NCBI RefSeq assembly: GCF_006345805.1
Contig: NC_043024.1
Coordinates: 5,456,001-5,520,000, forward strand
Direction: 5' to 3'
Source: Octopus sinensis
Lineage: Eukaryota
DNA: 64,000 nucleotides
The translations under genes and the position numbers were made by a program. Within the stretch, counting starts at the first letter, position 1. Each line of letters begins with the position of its first letter. The notes beneath the pieces are model-generated. The model had not been told where the DNA came from. It saw only the letters and a program-made list of their open reading frames with translations, and did not search any database. This document shows positions 2,109-25,863 of this stretch, one piece after another.

Positions 2109-2228
2109 TATATATACATACACATATAGACCTATATAAGATTATTGACTTTGACATTTCAAATAGCGATATGAACCGGTGGTATATATATGTGTGTGTG
2201 TGTGTGTGTATATGTATATATATATATA
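1978..2228. repeat. (TA)n/(TG)n microsatellite tract
   Basis: Long TA dinucleotide run with CA/TG interruptions. Confidence 0.95.
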
Positions 2229-2900
2229 GATTCTCACAAAGGCAAAATTGTCTTCTAAAATTACGGATGCAAAAGTAAAAAATGTGGTAGATCGAACTGT
2301 GCAACATGTCCTAACCTATTAGAAGGATCTGAATTCTTCTTTAAAGAGGGACAGAAATTCAAGATCAAATCTAACTTTACTTGTGCCTCTGAAAACATAA
2401 TTTATGTCATTAAATGCTCGGGCTGCCACCAAGACTACGTGGGTTCCACGGGACTATCACTCAGGCGTAGATGCACACTGCATCGACAACAGATTGCATT
2501 CCCAGAATATAGAATGATACCTTTTAGTGAGCACATTGAGAAATGCGCAAAGCAACTACTGCCACAATTTTTAATCTTCCCATTTTACCAATGTGCTTTC
2601 GGATCATCAACACAAATGAGACTGAACAAGGAAACATTCTTCATTGAAAAGTACAAACCCAGACTCAACCATCCAAACATACTGACACAGAGAAATTAAC
2701 AAGGGAAAGGAAAAAAATTTTTAAGAGATTATCTCCCTTACACCGGAAGAAATCACTCACTACCTCCCCTTATTTAGAAATCTCCTGAAAATAAACACAA
2801 CGATAACTCCATGCAATATAAACATAACGTCACAAGAAATTTGAAAAGCTACACGCGAAACCGGTAATTTCTTTAAAAATTTTAAAATTATGTCATTTTA
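2229..2900 (+). mobile_element. Penelope-like retroelement 3' fragment 1 (Cys-rich linker + GIY-YIG endonuclease, ORF remnant 2229-2699)
   Basis: Frame of ORF 2439-2699 extends upstream: CGRSNCATC...FTCASENIIYVIKCSGCHQDYVGSTG..LRRR...H...RLNKETFFIEKYKPRLN; followed by a hammerhead motif. Confidence 0.85.
2834..2873 (+). ncRNA. Minimal type I hammerhead ribozyme (U3-A8 core variant) in Penelope 3' region
   Basis: Stem I aagaaat/atttctt; core UUGAAAA; stem II gc-tacac-gc; GAAA; palindromic stem III ACCGGT; GUA cleavage triplet ending at 2866. Confidence 0.75.
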
Positions 2901-3983
2901 AGGAAAGGAAAAAAATTTTTTCCAATATTCTCCAGACATTTTGACACAAATATATATATTTTTTAACATTTAAGCCTTCTGTCGTTTTTTCACACTTTAC
3001 TATTTTCTTATATATTCACCCACGTGCTTTACCAAACAAACTTTCTTATCTATATATATATATATATACACATACATACATACACATGTCTCCAGGAACT
3101 TAGAACTCACAAATAGAAACTATCCACAGCCCCTAATAGACAGTGCAATCCAAAGGGCACTCAAATTAAGTATAGAAGACCTGAGACAAACAAAACCAAA
3201 AAAGAAAGAACAATTAAAAACCCTTCCCTACATCTCTACACACAACCCACTCAACAATGAGGCCTTCAGCACCATACTACAAAGCACAGCCCTACTAAAG
3301 GGAGACCCAAAGATGAACCGGATCCTCGAAACACACACCATCATTAAAAGTAAACGGCAACCAAAATCCTTGAAAAGGATTTTAACCCAAGCTAAACTGC
3401 ACTCAACATCAACCACAAAACCAGCAGTTAGAAAATGTGGAAGGCCCAACTGCGGAATCTGTGTCATCTTGATAGAAGGTTCAGAATTTATACTAGAACA
3501 AGGCCATCAGTTCACCATTAGAGCAAACTTCACCTGCGCATCAGAAAACTTAATTTACGTCATAACATGCACAGGCTGCAATAGGCAGTATATAGGCCAT
3601 ACATAAAATAGCTTACGTAACAGGATGGCGGTGCATAAATCACAAATTAAAAACCCTGATTACCGCAAAATACCGGTCAGCGGACACATAGATAGATGTG
3701 CTGGAAATGTAAATCCGAAATTTACAACTTACCCGCTTTATAAATTCAGTGACAGCGTAACCTTCACACAACGCCAAAATAAAGAACTGTATTTCATCAA
3801 AAAATTTAGACCAAGTTTGAACACCCTGGGCTAGGAATATTAAAACAAAAGATTGGTCCTCCGAAAAGGAGAAGCGAAATTCCACCACGGCCGCTGCCTT
3901 AAAGAGTCACTCACACTGACAGAAATATGTCTTAGGGAAAAGGAAAAAAATTCATAAAAAGATCTCTACGAGCAGATCTAATC

Positions 3984-4370
3984 CTGATTCGTCGAGAAAC
4001 TGATGACGTATTACCTCAGTGGACAATCTATTGTCACCCTGCTTGGTCGGTTTCCACATACGATACAGCTAAGGGTCAAACCCGATTCTGATTGGTCTAA
4101 ACATTGATGACGTCTCGTTCTGCTGGACTAGCCACCTAACGGGATGATTGGTCAAAACAGTGATGACGTCACGTTCCGCTGGACTAGCCACCTAACAGGA
4201 TACAGACATGGGTCAGAGCTAATACAGCTATAGGTCAGACCCAATTCTGATTGGTCGAAACATTGATGACGTCCCGTTCTGCTGGACTAGCCACCTAATG
4301 AGACGATTGGTCAAAACTTTGATGACGTCCCGTTCCGCTGGACTAGCCACCTAACAGGTGATATAAAACC
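3984..4370 (+). promoter_or_regulatory. Tandem CCAAT + CRE-like repeats followed by TATA (Penelope pLTR promoter-like)
   Basis: Four clear copies of gattggtc....tgatgacgtc.cgtt..gctggactagccacctaa plus a degenerate one, then TATAAAA at about 4362. Confidence 0.55.
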
Positions 4371-4608
4371 CAAACATTTCACAAGATTCACCAGAACTAT
4401 TCGAACAGACACCAACCAACAGTCATCACAGTTGCTCCCATTGGAACACAAGGTAAAACCTAAAATGAATTCCTCGCTTTTTCAACTATGAACTACTACT
4501 GCATACTCTTTAAACATATAGCATGGACTCGCTCCACTATATATGAATTTTTTATTATATATGAATTTTTTATATTTGATAGCATGAACTATCTTTTTTA
4601 TATATAAA

Positions 4609-4652
4609 TTTTTTGATAAGGTTCGTCATTTCAAGAACCGAAACATATTAAA
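4609..4652 (+). ncRNA. Degenerate hammerhead ribozyme motif (U3-A8 variant)
   Basis: UUGAUAA core, stem II ggttc/gaacc, GAAAC; stem III acatat is one change from palindromic acatgt; stem I weak. Confidence 0.45.
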
Positions 4653-4737
4653 TAAATAATGTATATATAAAAATCAAAAATTTGTCTAATATAACAGCAT
4701 TTTCAAACTTCATTTTTTACAAATATATATATATAGA

Positions 4738-6200
4738 CATAGTTTTCGTATGTGGCAGATGCTCAGGAGAAATAAACACTGGAAATGTGCAGAGACCAAC
4801 TGCTACCACGTTCCAGGGAGACAAACTAGAAGTAGTTGATAGCTTCCGCTACCTAGGAGACCAAGTCAGTAGTGGGGGTGGGTGTGCTGAAAGTGTAACT
4901 GCTAGAGTAAGAATAGCCTGGGCAAAGTTTAGAGAGCTCTTACCCCTGCTGGTGACAAAAGGCCCCTCGCTCAGAGTAAAAGGCAGACTTTATGATGCAT
5001 GTGTACGTACAGCCATGCTACATGGTAGTGAAACATGGGCCGTGACTGCTGAGGATATGCGTAAGCTCGCAAGAAATGAAGCCAGTATGCTCTGATGGAT
5101 GTGTAATGTCAGTGTTCATAATCGTCAGAGTGTAAGTACCTTGAGAGAAAAGTTGAACCTAAGAAGCGTCAGTTGTGGTGTGCAAGAGAGACGGCTGCGC
5201 TGGTATGGTCATATGACGAGAATGGCTGAAGATAGTTGTGTGCAAAAGTGCTACACCCTAGCAGTTGAGGGAACCTGTGGAAGAGGTAGACCCAGGAAAA
5301 TCTGGGACGAAGTGGTGAAGCACGACCTACGAACTTTAGGTCTCACCAAGGAAATGACTAGAGACCGAGACCTATGGAAGTATGCTGTGCGTGAGAAGAC
5401 CCGGCAAGACTAGTCAGGCCATAACCCGTGGCCCCTACCTGGGACGTAGTCAGTCCACCTGTGCATACCTTCCTTCTTGTGACACTTGTGAAGACCTGTT
5501 GAGGCAAGTGAAAATCAAACAAAATTAAAATAGATGAACATCAATGGAATTTGTATCTTGTGGTACCAGTGCCGAGAAAACCATCTGAACGTGGCCGTAG
5601 CCAGTACCGCACCGACTGGCCTCCATGCTGTGGGCACGTAACAATCACCATCCAATCGTGGCCGATCGCCAGCCTAATCTGGCACCTGTGTCGGTGGCAC
5701 ATAAATAAAAAAAAACACCATCCGAGCGTGGTCGTCTGCTAGCCTTGTCTGGCACCTGTATCGGTGGCACATAAAAACACCATCCGAGCGTGGCCGTTCG
5801 CCAGCCTCGTCTGGCACCTGTGTCGGTGGCACATAAAAACACCATCCGAGCGTGGTCGTCTGCCAGCCTTGTCTGGCACCTGTGTCGGTGGCACATAAAA
5901 ACACCATCCGAGCGTGGCCGTTCGCCAGCTTCGTCTGGCACCTGTGTCGGTGGCACATAAAAACACCATCCGAGCGTGGCCGTTCGCCAGCCTCGTCTGG
6001 CACCTGTGTCGGTGGCACATAAAATCACCCACTACACTCTCGGAGTGGTTGGCGTTAGGAAGGGCATCCAGCTGTAGAAACACTGCCAGATCTGACTGGC
6101 CTGGTGCAGCCTTCGGGCTCCCCAGACCCCAGTTGAACCGTCCAACCCATGCTAGCATGGAAAGCGGACGTTAAATGATGATGATGATGATGATGATGAT
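4738..6200 (+). mobile_element. 5'-truncated RTE-clade LINE (C-terminal ORF + 3' UTR + (ATG)n tail)
   Basis: VCGRC..GDKLEVVDSFRYLG..LHGSETW..RRLRWYGH..GRGRPRK; homologous to 12930-14172; ends gttaaatgatgatgatg. Confidence 0.93.
5575..6030 (+). repeat. About 59-bp tandem repeat in RTE 3' UTR
   Basis: Unit accatccgagcgtggccgttcgccagcctcgtctggcacctgtgtcggtggcacataaaaac, about 7 copies. Confidence 0.9.
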
Positions 6201-8085: not shown

Positions 8086-8837
8086 AAAGGTAGAGAAGGA
8101 GCGATGTCTGTTTTAGCAAACAAAGATACAAGACTGCAATGAAAACATCAGAAATCTAGTGTCATTTATATGTATATTAGTGTGTGTGTGTGGAAGTGTG
8201 TCTATGACAGACTTTACATTCCAGGAGTTGTATTATAATAGATGTGTCTACTCTATGATATAAAAATTTTGCTAATGCAGAATTGGATATAAATTTAATA
8301 TTTCAGATAAAGAATTACTTCTACAATTTATGAAAACAGAAATGTCGTAAATTAGCACTTTTGAATATCTGCCTTTTAAACATACTTTATGTCTTATATT
8401 ATTTTTTCTATTCTTTCAGAAAATCACATGAAATTGGCTAAAAAGTATTCTTTACTTTTAAAGAATCATCAATATGTATCATGTTTGAAAGACTGCAAAG
8501 ATATTCTACAAACATATAATCTTTCTTCTATAAAACGTTGCTGAATTACAGTAATATATTTCCTCTGAGACAGAAAGCATTTCTTTACTTCTGAAATGTG
8601 CAAGAGATAATTTTCTCTTTTAAATATACTGTGATAGATTTTGAAACAGTATTTGCGACATTTTTAATATTGGCATTGACCACATTTAGAAATATAAGAG
8701 AAGTGATATTGTTTTTGGAATAAACTATAAAAGTCAAAAGAAGCAAAATATCCATATATTTTGGTGAGAGGAGAAATATTTTTGAAAAGTTGTTGATCTG
8801 TACAACTTGAAGGATTGATTATATTTTTCTTGAAGAG

Positions 8838-9696
<859 letters not shown>

Positions 9697-10206
9697 AAAC
9701 CATACCCCTGTGATATCTATGGTAAGACGTTCTCTGGAAACAGTCACTTAACTATACACAAATGCATTAACACTCAAGTAAAATCAATTCACAGTGATAT
9801 CTGTGGTAAATCATTTACACAAAATCATTTCTGATTTAAACAGGAGTCTTTCCTTATGAAGTGGGTCCATAACACAGTGATATTTGTTGTATAACATTTC
9901 CTCAGAAGGACAAAGGACGTATCTCATAAAGACATCCACAGAATATAGAAACTATATGAATGTGACATCTATGGTAAATCTTTGACATGAAATCATCCAT
10001 TATTGAATCAAAAGAGCATTGACAGAGGAAGGAAAACATATCACTGTGATGTTAAACCTGAATCATTCTTTCAAAATGGTGAATTGTTTGTACACAGTCC
10101 TTTTAATATGAAAGATATAACTGTAATCTAAGCTATTTGTGCTAAATCAATCTATGAAAATGATCAATAATTGAAATGTAAATGCATTGATACAGAAGAG
10201 GAACCA

Positions 10207-10840: not shown

Positions 10841-13800
10841 AACACTGACGGGGTTGGTGGCGTGGGTATACTTATCGCTGAGAAATGGGTAGATAAAGTA
10901 ATTGAGGTAATCAGAGTATGTGACAATACTTAAGATTAGATTAGTGCTTCATCATGGATTAGCAACCATGATATCGGCCTATGCTCCTCAGCCGGGGTTA
11001 CCTGATGGACAGAAAGACCGATTCTATGACACTCTGTTGCAGACTACCTCGTTGACGAATGACAGACCTTCTCTTTGTGGCTGGTGACTTCAATAGTCAC
11101 ATTGGACGACATGCTGGGGGCTTCCATGGCGTACATGGAGGCTATGGCTATGGTTCCCGCAACGAGGAGGGAACCAGGCTGCTGGAGTTCCGCGATGCAA
11201 ATAATCTTATGATTTGCAATACTAACTTCAGGAAACCTACCAGCCACCTAGTCACCTACCGATCGGGCCAACATACCAGCCAAATTGACTACATCCTTGC
11301 CAGGCAAAGGGAGAGATGGCTACTTATAAATGCCAAAACCTTCCCAGGCGAAGAATGTACCCCACAACATAGACTGGTAGTTAGTGACTTTAGGATCAGG
11401 ACTAAGAGGACGACCAACATGGAGAAGAAGGATCTTGAAGCGTAGAGATCCTACGAATGGACAGAGATTTAGGGACATGCTACTTGAAGCTTTTGACGAA
11501 GTAGAAGGGGATAGAGTCCCCTCTCGTCCCAAAGTAACGTGGTGGTGGAACAGTGTTGTAGACAGGGCTATTAGAGAAAAGAGACAGACTTAGAAGGACT
11601 GGAAGAATGGTGGTAGCAGGGAATTGTATCAGACTGCTAAAAGGGAAGCTAGGAGACAGGTCTATCTAGCCAGAGGGGAAGCAGATAAGAAAAAATTTGC
11701 CAATGTTCTGTGCCGTGACGACCAAGGACTGGAGGTGTTTTGCGTTACAAGACAGTGTGTGAGAGAGAATTGTGATGTGGTAGGAGAGAAGTGTGTTCGC
11801 ATGGTAGATGTTTCACTTGCGCTAAATGAGGATGCAAAGAGAGAGGTTTGGAGACGCCACTATGAAAGATTGCTGAATAAAGAAAATGAATGGGATAAAG
11901 AGAGTCTGCCGAATGTTGACCCAACAGAGGGACCAGCTATCAGAGTTGATAGTTCCTTGGTAGTTAAGGCAATTAGAGGCATGAAGACAGGGAAAGCCCC
12001 AGGCCCATCAGGTATCACTGCAGAGATGCTCAAAATATCTGGTAGTGTCGGCTATAGCCTAGTCACCCATATAGTTAATCAGGTGATACACGAAGGAGTC
12101 ATACCCAATGACTGGTGTAGCAGCATAATAGTCAACTGTTACAAAGGTAAGGGTGACGCCCTAGATACAAATTATTACAGAGGTATCAAGCTGTTGGATC
12201 AGGTGATGAAGGTTACAGAGAGGGTCATAACCCAACTAATTAGAGAGAGAGTTAGTTTAGATGAGATGCAGTTTGGGTTCGTGCCAGGGAAAAGTACCAC
12301 TGATGCTATATTCCTGGTAAGGCAGCTGCAGGAGAAATACCTAGCCAAAGATAAGCCCCTGTACCTGGTTTTCGTTGACATGGAGAAAGCCTTTGACAGG
12401 GTCCCCCGATACCTCATCTGGTGGTCAATGAGGAAACTAGGGATAGATGAATGGTTAGTGAGAGCTGTGCAAGCCATGTACAGGGACGCTGCTAGTAAGG
12501 TGAGGGTTGGCAACGAGTACAGTGAAGAATTCCGGGTAGAGGTAGGGGTCCACCAAGGCTCAGTCCTCAGCCCCCTCCTATTTATCATAGTCCTACAGGC
12601 AATAACGGAGGAATTCAAGACAGGATGCCCCTGGGAGCTCCTCTATGCTGGTGACCTTGCTCTAATTGCTGAGTCACTATCAGAACTGGAGGAGAAGTTT
12701 CAGGTGTGGAAGCAAGGTTTAGAATCGAAGGGCCTTAGAGTCAATCTAGCTAAAACCAAAGTCGTAATAAGTAGGAAGGTAGACAAATCACAAATGCCTT
12801 CAGGTAGATGGCCCTGCTCGATTTGTAGAAAAGGTGTAGGTAGAAACTCTATAAGATGCACCAAGTGTAATTTATGGACACATAGGAGGTGCAGCAATGT
12901 CAAAGGAAGGCTAACTAGGAAGATGGTTTTTGTATGTGGCAGATGCTCGGGAGCATTAACCTCTGAAAATCTGCAGAAAACAACTTCCGTCACTTTTCAG
13001 GGGGAAAAACTAGAAGTAGTTGATAGCTTCCGTTATCTTGGTGACCAAGTCAGTAGTGGGGGTGGGTGGGCTGAAAGTGTAACGGCTAGAGTAAGAATAG
13101 CCTTGGCAAAGATTAGGGAGCTCTTACCTCTGCTGGTGACTAAAGGCCTCTCGCTCAGAGTAAAAGGCAGACTGTATGATGCATGTGTATGAACAGCCAT
13201 GCTACATGGGCCGTGACTGCTGAGGACATGCGTAAGCTCGCAAGAAATGAAGCCAATATGCGCCGATGGATGTGTAATGTCAGTGTGCATGCTCGACAGA
13301 GCGTTAGTACCTTGAGAGAAAAGTTGGACCTAAGAAGCATCAGTTGTGGTGTGCAAGAGAGACGATTGCGCTGGTATGGTCATGTGGCGAGAATGGATGA
13401 AGATAGGTGTGTGAAAAAGTGCCAATCCCTAGCAGTGGAGGGAACCCATGGAAGAGGTAGACCCAGGAAAACTTGAGACAAGGTGGTGAAGCACGACCTT
13501 CGAACTTTAGGCCTCACTGAGGAAATGACCAGCGACCGAGACCTTTGGAAATATGCTGTGCATGAAAAGACCAGGCAGGACAAGTGAGCCCAGCCCACTT
13601 ATGCATGCCTTTCCTCCCTTGGACACACAAAGACCTGTTGAGGCAAGTGAAGTCGATATCGAACCTCATCCGATGACAGGCACCTATGCCAACCCCCCTT
13701 TGCTTGCGAAGACCTGTTGGGGCAAGTGAAATCGAAATTGAACCAATCCTATGATTGGCACCCGGCAGATGCCAGGAACCCTGGACTGGAGATACGTAAA

Positions 13801-23990: not shown

Positions 23991-24171
23991 GCATTGCACA
24001 CTGTTCGTAAAAATAATGCATTGAATGGCACAAGAACGGATTATAATAACCTTTGTAATTCAATCATCCATAGTCTGATATAATATTTCAGAATATAAAA
24101 ATCCCTTCTTCAGATATCCCTGGGAATTGATCGAGTCACTGCTATAATCGGTTTTCCAAAACATTCCCTCA

Positions 24172-25530
<1,359 letters not shown>

Positions 25531-25863
25531 AACAGAAGTCTTTCCTTATGAAGTGGGTCCATAACACAGTGATATTTGTTGTACAACATTTCTTCAGAAG
25601 GACAAAGGACGTATCTCATAAAGACATCCACAGAATATAGAAACTATATGAATGTGACATCTATAGTAAATCTTTGACATGAAATCATCCATTATTGAAT
25701 CAAAAGAGCATTGACAGAGGAAGGAAAACATATCACTGTGATGTTAAACCTGAATCATTCTTTCAAAATGGTGAATTGTTTGTACACAGTCCTATTAATA
25801 TGAAAGATATAACTGTAACCTAAGCTATTCGTGCTTAATCAATCTACGAAAATGGATCAATTA

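What the first reader, a model, noticed from the sequence alone, without database searches (positions are those of the whole stretch)
2834..2873. Well-formed minimal hammerhead ribozyme with a U3-A8 core in a Penelope tail
Seen: 7-bp stem I (aagaaat/atttctt), core UUGAAAA, 2-bp stem II, GAAA, palindromic ACCGGT stem III and a GUA site. Known: Penelope elements carry minimal type I hammerheads that act as dimers through palindromic stem III, and positions 3 and 8 base-pair. Inference: here C3-G8 is replaced by U3-A8, so standard CUGANGA searches would miss it.
Basis: partly seen in the sequence, partly recalled or inferred. Interest (0 to 1): 0.75.

Follow-up and report, generated by a model that had tools for sequence, protein, structure and literature searches.

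The report
U-A core hammerhead in Penelope tail
A young jumping-gene family carries a tiny hammerhead-shaped RNA, predicted to cut itself only when two copies pair, in which the usual C-G core pair is U-A; that swap is already published, but here it is the common form across related families, with A-U and U-G versions in sister lineages, and cutting is untested.

Summary
The motif sits in the tail (pLTR) of a 5'-truncated copy of a young Neptune-type Penelope-like element, with 782 exact core copies and one motif in each pLTR of a full-length copy. U3-A8 is not new: it is published for Schistosoma Penelope elements (PMC4209133) and other natural hammerheads (PMC3088659). What I add: among 30 endonuclease-picked loci, 18 carry U3-A8, 1 A3-U8 and none C3-G8. 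Stem I is kept with different letters across 14 lineages (41 of 42 pairs). A sister clade uses A3-U8, and a nested clade with U3·G8 still reached 139 copies. Two copies fold best as a double hammerhead, but U3 can pair with A17 over the cut site. No copy ends at the cut site, in a sample biased towards intact motifs, and no raw RNA reads were available. The scan noted A3-U8 Penelope hammerheads before, in other genomes. Verdict: real, new member of a known kind; cleavage likely but slow and untested.

The parts
2228..3057 (+). 5'-truncated copy of Penelope-like family A (Neptune type), flanked by TA-rich microsatellite
   Evidence: Matches full-length copy L031 at 96-97% over 2228-2969 and 2781-3057; sister copies share nothing with the window beyond about 3090
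2259..2699 (+). C-terminal frame: CX4CxxC linker and GIY-YIG endonuclease, ending at the stop
   Evidence: 146-aa frame; Pfam GIY-YIG E 0.0029, under the cut-off; Neptune/Nematis linker as defined in PMC8557442
2834..2840 (+). Hammerhead stem I, 5' arm
   Evidence: Sequence; pairs with 2867-2873
2841..2847 (+). Core 5' strand U3-A9, with U3 and A8
   Evidence: Sequence; 782 exact copies of 2841-2866
2848..2856 (+). Stem II (2 bp) and 5-nt loop; G10.1-C11.1 kept, the second pair is C-G or U-A in sister subfamilies
2857..2866 (+). G12 A13 A14, palindromic stem III ACCGGU, A17; predicted cut after 2866
   Evidence: Sequence; intermolecular pairing probability 0.93-1.0 in the dimer fold
2867..2873 (+). 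Hammerhead stem I, 3' arm
   Evidence: Sequence
3015..3057 (+). Optional 40-nt Penelope 'tail' between the two preferred 3' ends of copies
   Evidence: 37 of 81 ends at 3014-3018 and 39 of 81 at 3055-3062, where 3062 is the end of the query; same signature as in PMC11167929
3082..4741 (+). Second 5'-truncated Penelope-like element (family B), directly behind family A
   Evidence: endonuclease about 49% identical to family-A-clan endonucleases
4609..4653 (+). Second U3-A8 minimal hammerhead (family B); this copy has A at 4647 where the family has G, which breaks the stem III palindrome
   Evidence: 22 of the other 24 loci show the intact palindrome and 2 gave no anchored row

Best explanation
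This is a minimal type I hammerhead motif with a U3-A8 core pair in the terminal repeat of a young Neptune-type Penelope-like retrotransposon, which likely cuts RNA after base 2866 only when two copies pair through the palindrome, likely slowly and likely with help from the element's protein. Shown: anatomy, position in both pLTRs, pairing kept across lineages, and a double-hammerhead fold as the best computed dimer. Inferred: in tandem or read-through transcripts, cutting in the upstream repeat would trim the RNA about 208 nt before the first ATG. Cutting does not appear to set the 3' end of the copied template: copies end about 150 or 190 nt downstream of the cut site and contain the intact motif, so they come from uncut or re-joined RNA. 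This lone truncated copy is most likely a passenger that could act only with a second transcript.
For: 782 exact copies against 0 control. Motif in both pLTRs of full-length L031, 3981 nt apart, with RT and endonuclease between and an ATG 208 nt after the upstream cut site. Picked by endonuclease with positions 3 and 8 left free, 19 of 28 Penelope loci have a minimal hammerhead downstream, all Watson-Crick at 3-8 (18 U-A, 1 A-U). Across 14 lineages the first 3 bp of stem I pair in 41 of 42 cells with four different pair types; shuffle mean 21.4, 0 of 5000 reach it. Genome pattern counts, hits / reversed control: U-A 20637/2809, C-G 5543/1166, A-U 4429/2074, mismatched C-A 2503/1341, U-G 2769/1857. 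Dimer MFE is the double hammerhead, -15.5 kcal/mol, against -4.0 for a monomer. PMC3088659 section 8 says ribozymes with covarying 3-8 nucleotides were shown active in vitro and that 2-bp stems II occur. PMC4209133: monomer inactive, dimer weakly active. PMC11167929: an anole Penelope hammerhead cut only with protein added.
Against: No cleavage data. U3 can pair with A17: the closed form is 1.4 kcal/mol better, pair probability 0.71, like the G17-C3 trap (PMC3884650). A clade with U3·G8 and an extra U between stem I and U3 reached 139 exact copies, so a perfect core is not needed to spread. 0 of 81 3' ends and 0 of 28 5' ends lie at 2866/2867, though these loci were chosen for an intact motif. 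In the anole element, hammerhead mutants did not impair insertion in vitro and no RNA reads ended at the cut site. The 14 lineages are related, exclude out-of-register subfamilies, and for six the hit was chosen by best stem I, so the shuffle figure overstates the signal.
Confidence: 0.68

Rival explanations
1. The fold is real and selected, but in this family it rarely or never cuts. It serves as an RNA pairing or protein-binding element in the terminal repeat, or is a hammerhead under relaxed selection.
For: U3·A17 closure predicted at 0.71. U3·G8 subfamilies form one clade nested in U3-A8 (100/99) and amplified to 139 copies. The stem I register changes 3 times on that tree. No copy ends at the cut site. 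Hammerhead dispensable for insertion in vitro (PMC11167929).
Against: Catalytic positions U4 G5 A6 A9 G12 A13 A14 A15.1 U16.1 and a non-G at 17 recur in lineages with endonucleases about 45-65% identical (those positions were part of the scan). A double change to A3-U8 keeps the pair in a whole clade, and that pair is known to form in the active fold (PMC3884650 introduction).
Confidence: 0.25
2. It cuts efficiently as a monomer, with the 2-bp stem III held by tertiary contacts or protein.
For: Stem I is long for the class (7 bp), and the monomer fold forms stems I and II. The anole motif was protein-assisted.
Against: Stem III would need a 2-nt loop. A palindrome is kept with different letters (CCGG 10, CATG 3, GCGC 1 of 14, where the pattern allowed only these three). 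A published minimal monomer did not cut. I found no loop I/II partner.
Confidence: 0.05
3. A chance match in AT-rich repeat DNA, multiplied by transposition.
For: AT-rich stems, folding z-score -0.37, no Rfam hit; copy number reflects the element, not the motif.
Against: 0 of 5000 tail shuffles; same motif at the same place in divergent families with different stem letters.
Confidence: 0.02

Closest known systems
Minimal type I hammerheads of metazoan Penelope-like elements, U3-A8 families of Schistosoma mansoni Cercyon (Cervera and De la Pena 2014, PMC4209133; seen: main text parts 1-2 of 4, supplement file 2 parts 1-2 of 3; file 1 not searchable)
   Same: Type I, in both pLTRs, palindromic stem III, G10.1-C11.1, U3-A8; one listed representative also begins UUGAAAA.
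   Different: Here stem II is 2 bp (7-8 bp for the main Schistosoma families), there is no bulge after A9, stem I is 7 bp (4-5 there), the palindrome is 6 nt and the host is Neptune-type. There U3-A8 is the minority (about 1,300 against 2,000; 2 of 56 listed representatives); here it is 18 of 19 endonuclease-linked motifs.
Natural U3-A8 hammerheads (Perreault et al. 2011, PMC3088659; seen: section 8 and passages)
   Same: U3-A8 covariation in nature; 2-bp stem II and weak stem III reported.
   Different: The section names no Penelope host and no A3-U8 case.
Poseidon_Ac hammerhead of the green anole (Frangieh et al. 2024, PMC11167929; seen: parts 1-2 of 4)
   Same: pLTR hammerhead; two-ended 30-40 nt tail from internal RT starts; no ends at the cut site.
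   Different: C3-G8 core, Poseidon clade, and the ORF starts inside the ribozyme; here the first ATG is 208 nt after the cut site.
Small dimer-cleaving hammerheads of Penelope elements (Lunse, Weinberg, Breaker, RNA Biol 14:1499; not held; known only through the review PMC6765202, passages)
   Same: Short palindromic stem III; dimer cleavage.
   Different: Could not check whether it already lists U3-A8, A3-U8 or cephalopod examples.

Membership tests
Minimal type I hammerhead (Penelope type) | Core U4 G5 A6 N7 . A9 and G12 A13 A14 A15.1, U16.1 H17 | tested here: met
   Window 2841-2866; recurs in 19 of 28 endonuclease-picked Penelope loci
Minimal type I hammerhead (Penelope type) | Watson-Crick pair between positions 3 and 8 | tested here: met
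   U3-A8; 11 U-A and 3 A-U among 14 lineages; mismatched classes only 1.5-1.9 times control against 7.3 for U-A
Minimal type I hammerhead (Penelope type) | Open stem I closing the motif, with covariation | tested here: met
   7 bp; 41 of 42 cells paired across lineages; several sister subfamilies are one base out of register
Minimal type I hammerhead (Penelope type) | Stem II starting with G10.1-C11.1 | tested here: met
   2 bp; G-C in 10 of 14 lineages, second position a standard pair in 13 of 14
Minimal type I hammerhead (Penelope type) | Palindromic stem III allowing a double hammerhead | tested here: met
   Dimer MFE is the double hammerhead; computed, not measured
Minimal type I hammerhead (Penelope type) | Self-cleavage at N17 as a dimer | not testable with these tools
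   No raw RNA reads offered; bench assay needed
Canonical tertiary-stabilised hammerhead (Rfam models) | Match to a curated covariance model | tested here: not met
   No hammerhead family at E <= 10 in 2200-4800, nor at E <= 1 in 7 related loci, two of them C3-G8
EN+ Penelope-like element | RT followed by C-terminal GIY-YIG; pLTRs; tandem or inverted insertions; 30-40 nt tail | tested here: met
   L031 has an inverted piece plus two direct repeats
Neptune clade | CX2-5CxxC linker before the endonuclease; microsatellite targets | tested here: met
   CX4CxxC in the frame; TA-rich flanks; definition from PMC8557442; the linker is shared with Nematis
Neptune clade | Placement by RT phylogeny with named reference elements | not tested
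   No reference Penelope proteins were fetched; trees used this genome only

The most novel reading that the evidence does not exclude
A whole Neptune-type branch in this genome left the canonical C3-G8 pair long ago and runs on U3-A8 in some 18,000 motifs. One sister clade of roughly 1,600 copies flipped it again to A3-U8, a natural core I could not find in print, and another spread with a U·G wobble. In the window's family, U3 pairing with A17 works as a latch that keeps the RNA uncut until a partner or the element's protein opens it. Together these are a natural mutational series for asking whether Penelope hammerheads must cut.
Probability: 0.3. Interest if true: 0.6.

Novelty: new member of a known kind. 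Interest (0 to 1): 0.36.

Why it matters
What Penelope hammerheads do is still open: low activity in vitro, and dispensable for insertion in the one reconstituted system. This genome offers close relatives with U-A, A-U and U·G at the 3-8 pair and with in- or out-of-register stem I, all of which amplified, so activity can be compared with copy number. In practice, CUGANGA-only descriptors and Rfam miss the dominant form in these elements, so such ribozyme counts are too low. The U3-A8 swap itself is ten-year-old knowledge.

Tried and rejected
Rfam: no hammerhead hit. Monomer folding z-score uninformative. RNA evidence: no RNA holder on record was listed and only contigs were offered; contigs cannot show ends. 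In one search, four runs coded as four organisms hold the stretch; variants listed at >=2% were in loop II (2851, 2852), at 2840 in one run and a deletion at 2866, none at catalytic positions; weak, as related contigs drop rare variants. Within-family conservation (5 of 1323 against 198 of 9550 differences) is not used: loci were picked with the motif in the query. The idea that U3·G8 subfamilies are intermediates from C3-G8 was rejected: they nest inside U3-A8, and U3·G8 is already in the 2014 alignment (Saccoglossus). The shared start at 2228 is only this copy's truncation. MAFFT misaligned the A3-U8 family by one column, so pairs were counted on a structural alignment. C3-G8 pattern hits could hardly be tied to Penelope coding sequence (1 of 30, and 0 of 30 with 3.5 kb upstream; no RT or GIY-YIG among 63 frames from 40 loci); they look older or non-coding, and my queries favour Neptune types. 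A repeated C3·A8 hit is a different repeat with no evident stem I (4 of 5 loci gave a row). One search used a mistyped pattern (4 hits) and was redone. G3-C8 cores and the commoner 2-nt stem III class were not counted genome-wide, so the 4:1 ratio holds only for the C-NN-G stem III class. Przybilski and Hammann 2007 and Lunse et al. were not held.

Full report
Observation. With a descriptor that allows C-G or U-A at positions 3 and 8, this is the only hit in the window with stem I of 6 bp or more; shuffles give 0.01 per 64 kb, and 0 of 5000 shuffles of the tail give any hit. The descriptor was written after seeing the motif. Folding energy does not mark it out (z -0.37) and Rfam has no matching model.

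The host element. The motif lies about 140 nt behind the stop of a GIY-YIG frame with a CX4CxxC linker, the mark of Neptune and Nematis elements (PMC8557442, passages). The 40 best-scoring copies are 97-100% identical, and the 26-base core occurs 782 times against 0 for the control. Of 14 longer loci, L031 is full length: an inverted piece, a direct repeat with the motif, an ATG 208 nt after the cut site, RT and endonuclease frames, and a second repeat with the motif 3981 nt on. The window copy is cut short at 2228 and ends near 3057. Copies end at two places, 37 of 81 near 3015 and 39 of 81 at 3055-3062. That is the optional Penelope tail, which in the anole element reflects two internal starts of reverse transcription (PMC11167929). 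A second Penelope family follows directly (3082-4741) with its own U3-A8 motif at 4609-4653, damaged in this copy. The 2.7-Gb genome with zinc-finger arrays looks like an octopus's; that is my inference from recall, and no call names it.

Is the pairing selected? Copies of one young family cannot say, so I compared families. I took the 30 best GIY-YIG loci of the genome and scanned downstream with positions 3 and 8 free: 18 U3-A8 (15 from the family B clan, 3 from divergent families), 1 A3-U8, 0 C3-G8, 9 with none, and 2 that look like a host SLX1-type gene (label recalled). In 14 endonuclease-linked lineages, the first 3 bp of stem I pair in 41 of 42 cells with U-A, A-U, C-G and G-C (shuffle mean 21.4, 0 of 5000), and 3-8 is U-A in 11 and A-U in 3. 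I chose these rows, left out the out-of-register subfamilies, and picked six hits by best stem I, so the shuffle overstates the signal. Genome-wide pattern counts, hits against reversed control, were U-A 20637/2809, C-G 5543/1166, A-U 4429/2074, C-A 2503/1341 and U-G 2769/1857. These count copies, not events, cover only the C-NN-G stem III class, and include non-hammerhead repeats: all three stems were present in 11, 4 and 7 of the first 30 U-A, C-G and A-U hits. Penelope coding sequence lay near 9, 1 and 8 of those 30.

History of the core. On an endonuclease tree (42 of 64 thinned rows, from 102; near-duplicates, truncated and mislabelled rows dropped), U3-A8 runs through the whole Neptune-like branch. 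The A3-U8 loci form one clade (99/91), sister to the clade holding the window's family (96/93), joined at 92/88 (L286 there is mislabelled and is A3-U8). The A3-U8 family made up 15 of the first 30 pattern hits and about 36 of the 100 listed by my eye count, roughly 1,600 copies. Among the closest relatives (2323 matches), a tree from upstream DNA only (29 of 94 segments plus 2 outgroups) puts the U3·G8 subfamilies in one clade (100/99) inside U3-A8: a derived change, not a step from C-G, which still reached 139 exact copies. These and several U3-A8 sisters also lack the first base of the 3' arm of stem I, leaving an extra U before U3; the register changes 3 times on the tree. So the pair is kept over long times but can lapse without stopping spread.

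How it likely works. Two copies of the 40-mer fold best as the classic double hammerhead, stems I swapped and the palindrome paired between strands (-15.5 kcal/mol against -4.0 for a monomer). With longer flanks the computed dimer instead uses a 12-nt AT palindrome just downstream, so context matters. In both folds U3 pairs with A17 and covers the cut site (probability 0.71 in the dimer, 1.4 kcal/mol better than the open core), like the G17-C3 trap, which lowers but does not abolish activity in tertiary-stabilised ribozymes (PMC3884650, passages). Published minimal Penelope hammerheads are dead as monomers and weak as dimers (PMC4209133), and the anole one needs its protein. I therefore infer slow, dimer-dependent, probably protein-assisted cutting that trims tandem transcripts ahead of the ATG. 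Genomic copies contain the intact motif and none of 81 3' ends or 28 5' ends falls on the cut site, so templates are uncut or re-joined; the sample is biased because loci were chosen for the motif. No raw reads were offered, so RNA ends could not be checked.

Comparison with what is known. PMC4209133 reports U3-A8 in Cercyon Penelope elements of Schistosoma (about 1,300 hits against 2,000). Its 56-row alignment has 2 U3-A8, 1 U3·G8 and no A3-U8 rows (supplement file 1 was not searchable). PMC3088659 section 8 reports natural U3-A8 and prior in vitro activity. I found no natural A3-U8 in print and no cephalopod report, but could not read Lunse et al. or Przybilski and Hammann 2007. Also seen: PMC6765202 and PMC6155905 (passages) and bioRxiv 10.64898/2026.07.22.740005 (part 1 of 5); they added no core variants. 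The scan's notes record A3-U8 Penelope hammerheads in other genomes (looked up after my own result).

Verdict. Real, well formed, and a new member of a known kind. The added value is the clade-wide switch and the natural series of cores. Interest 0.36.

Noticed in passing
L271:2066-2102 (+); L283, L306, L323, L327: Penelope clade with an A3-U8 minimal hammerhead, 2-bp stem II and C17, roughly 1,600 copies by extrapolation.
   Followed up: yes
L233, L234, L134, L236 (G000 C1, C2, C5, C9): Subfamilies with a U3·G8 wobble and an extra U before U3 amplified to 139 exact copies.
   Followed up: yes
window 4609-4653 (+): Second U3-A8 hammerhead, in Penelope family B; palindrome broken by one change in this copy.
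   Followed up: yes
window 4063-4358 (+): Tandem repeats of about 55-160 nt in the tail of family B, which vary in length between copies.
   Followed up: no
window minus strand, C3 at 24113 and 60736: C3-G8 hammerhead-like match (5-bp stem I, short palindrome) on the antisense strand just before two zinc-finger arrays that lie in a duplication 97% identical over the 1 kb tested; one event, may be chance.
   Followed up: partly
window 2877-2888: 12-nt AT palindrome right behind the hammerhead; it takes over dimer pairing in longer folds but is not kept in sister subfamilies.
   Followed up: partly
window 2277-2282: The window copy has a frameshift in an A run just before the zinc linker; the frames do not join.
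   Followed up: no
L083-L086, L193-L198: Abundant C3-G8 motif family with a 6-bp stem II but a non-palindromic stem III and no stem I; Penelope homology near only one of these loci.
   Followed up: partly
window 4740-5413, 11056-13192; 8811-9916, 24051-25608, 43814 onward: RT-bearing LINE fragments (RTE-type by recall) and several C2H2 zinc-finger arrays with 84-nt period.
   Followed up: no
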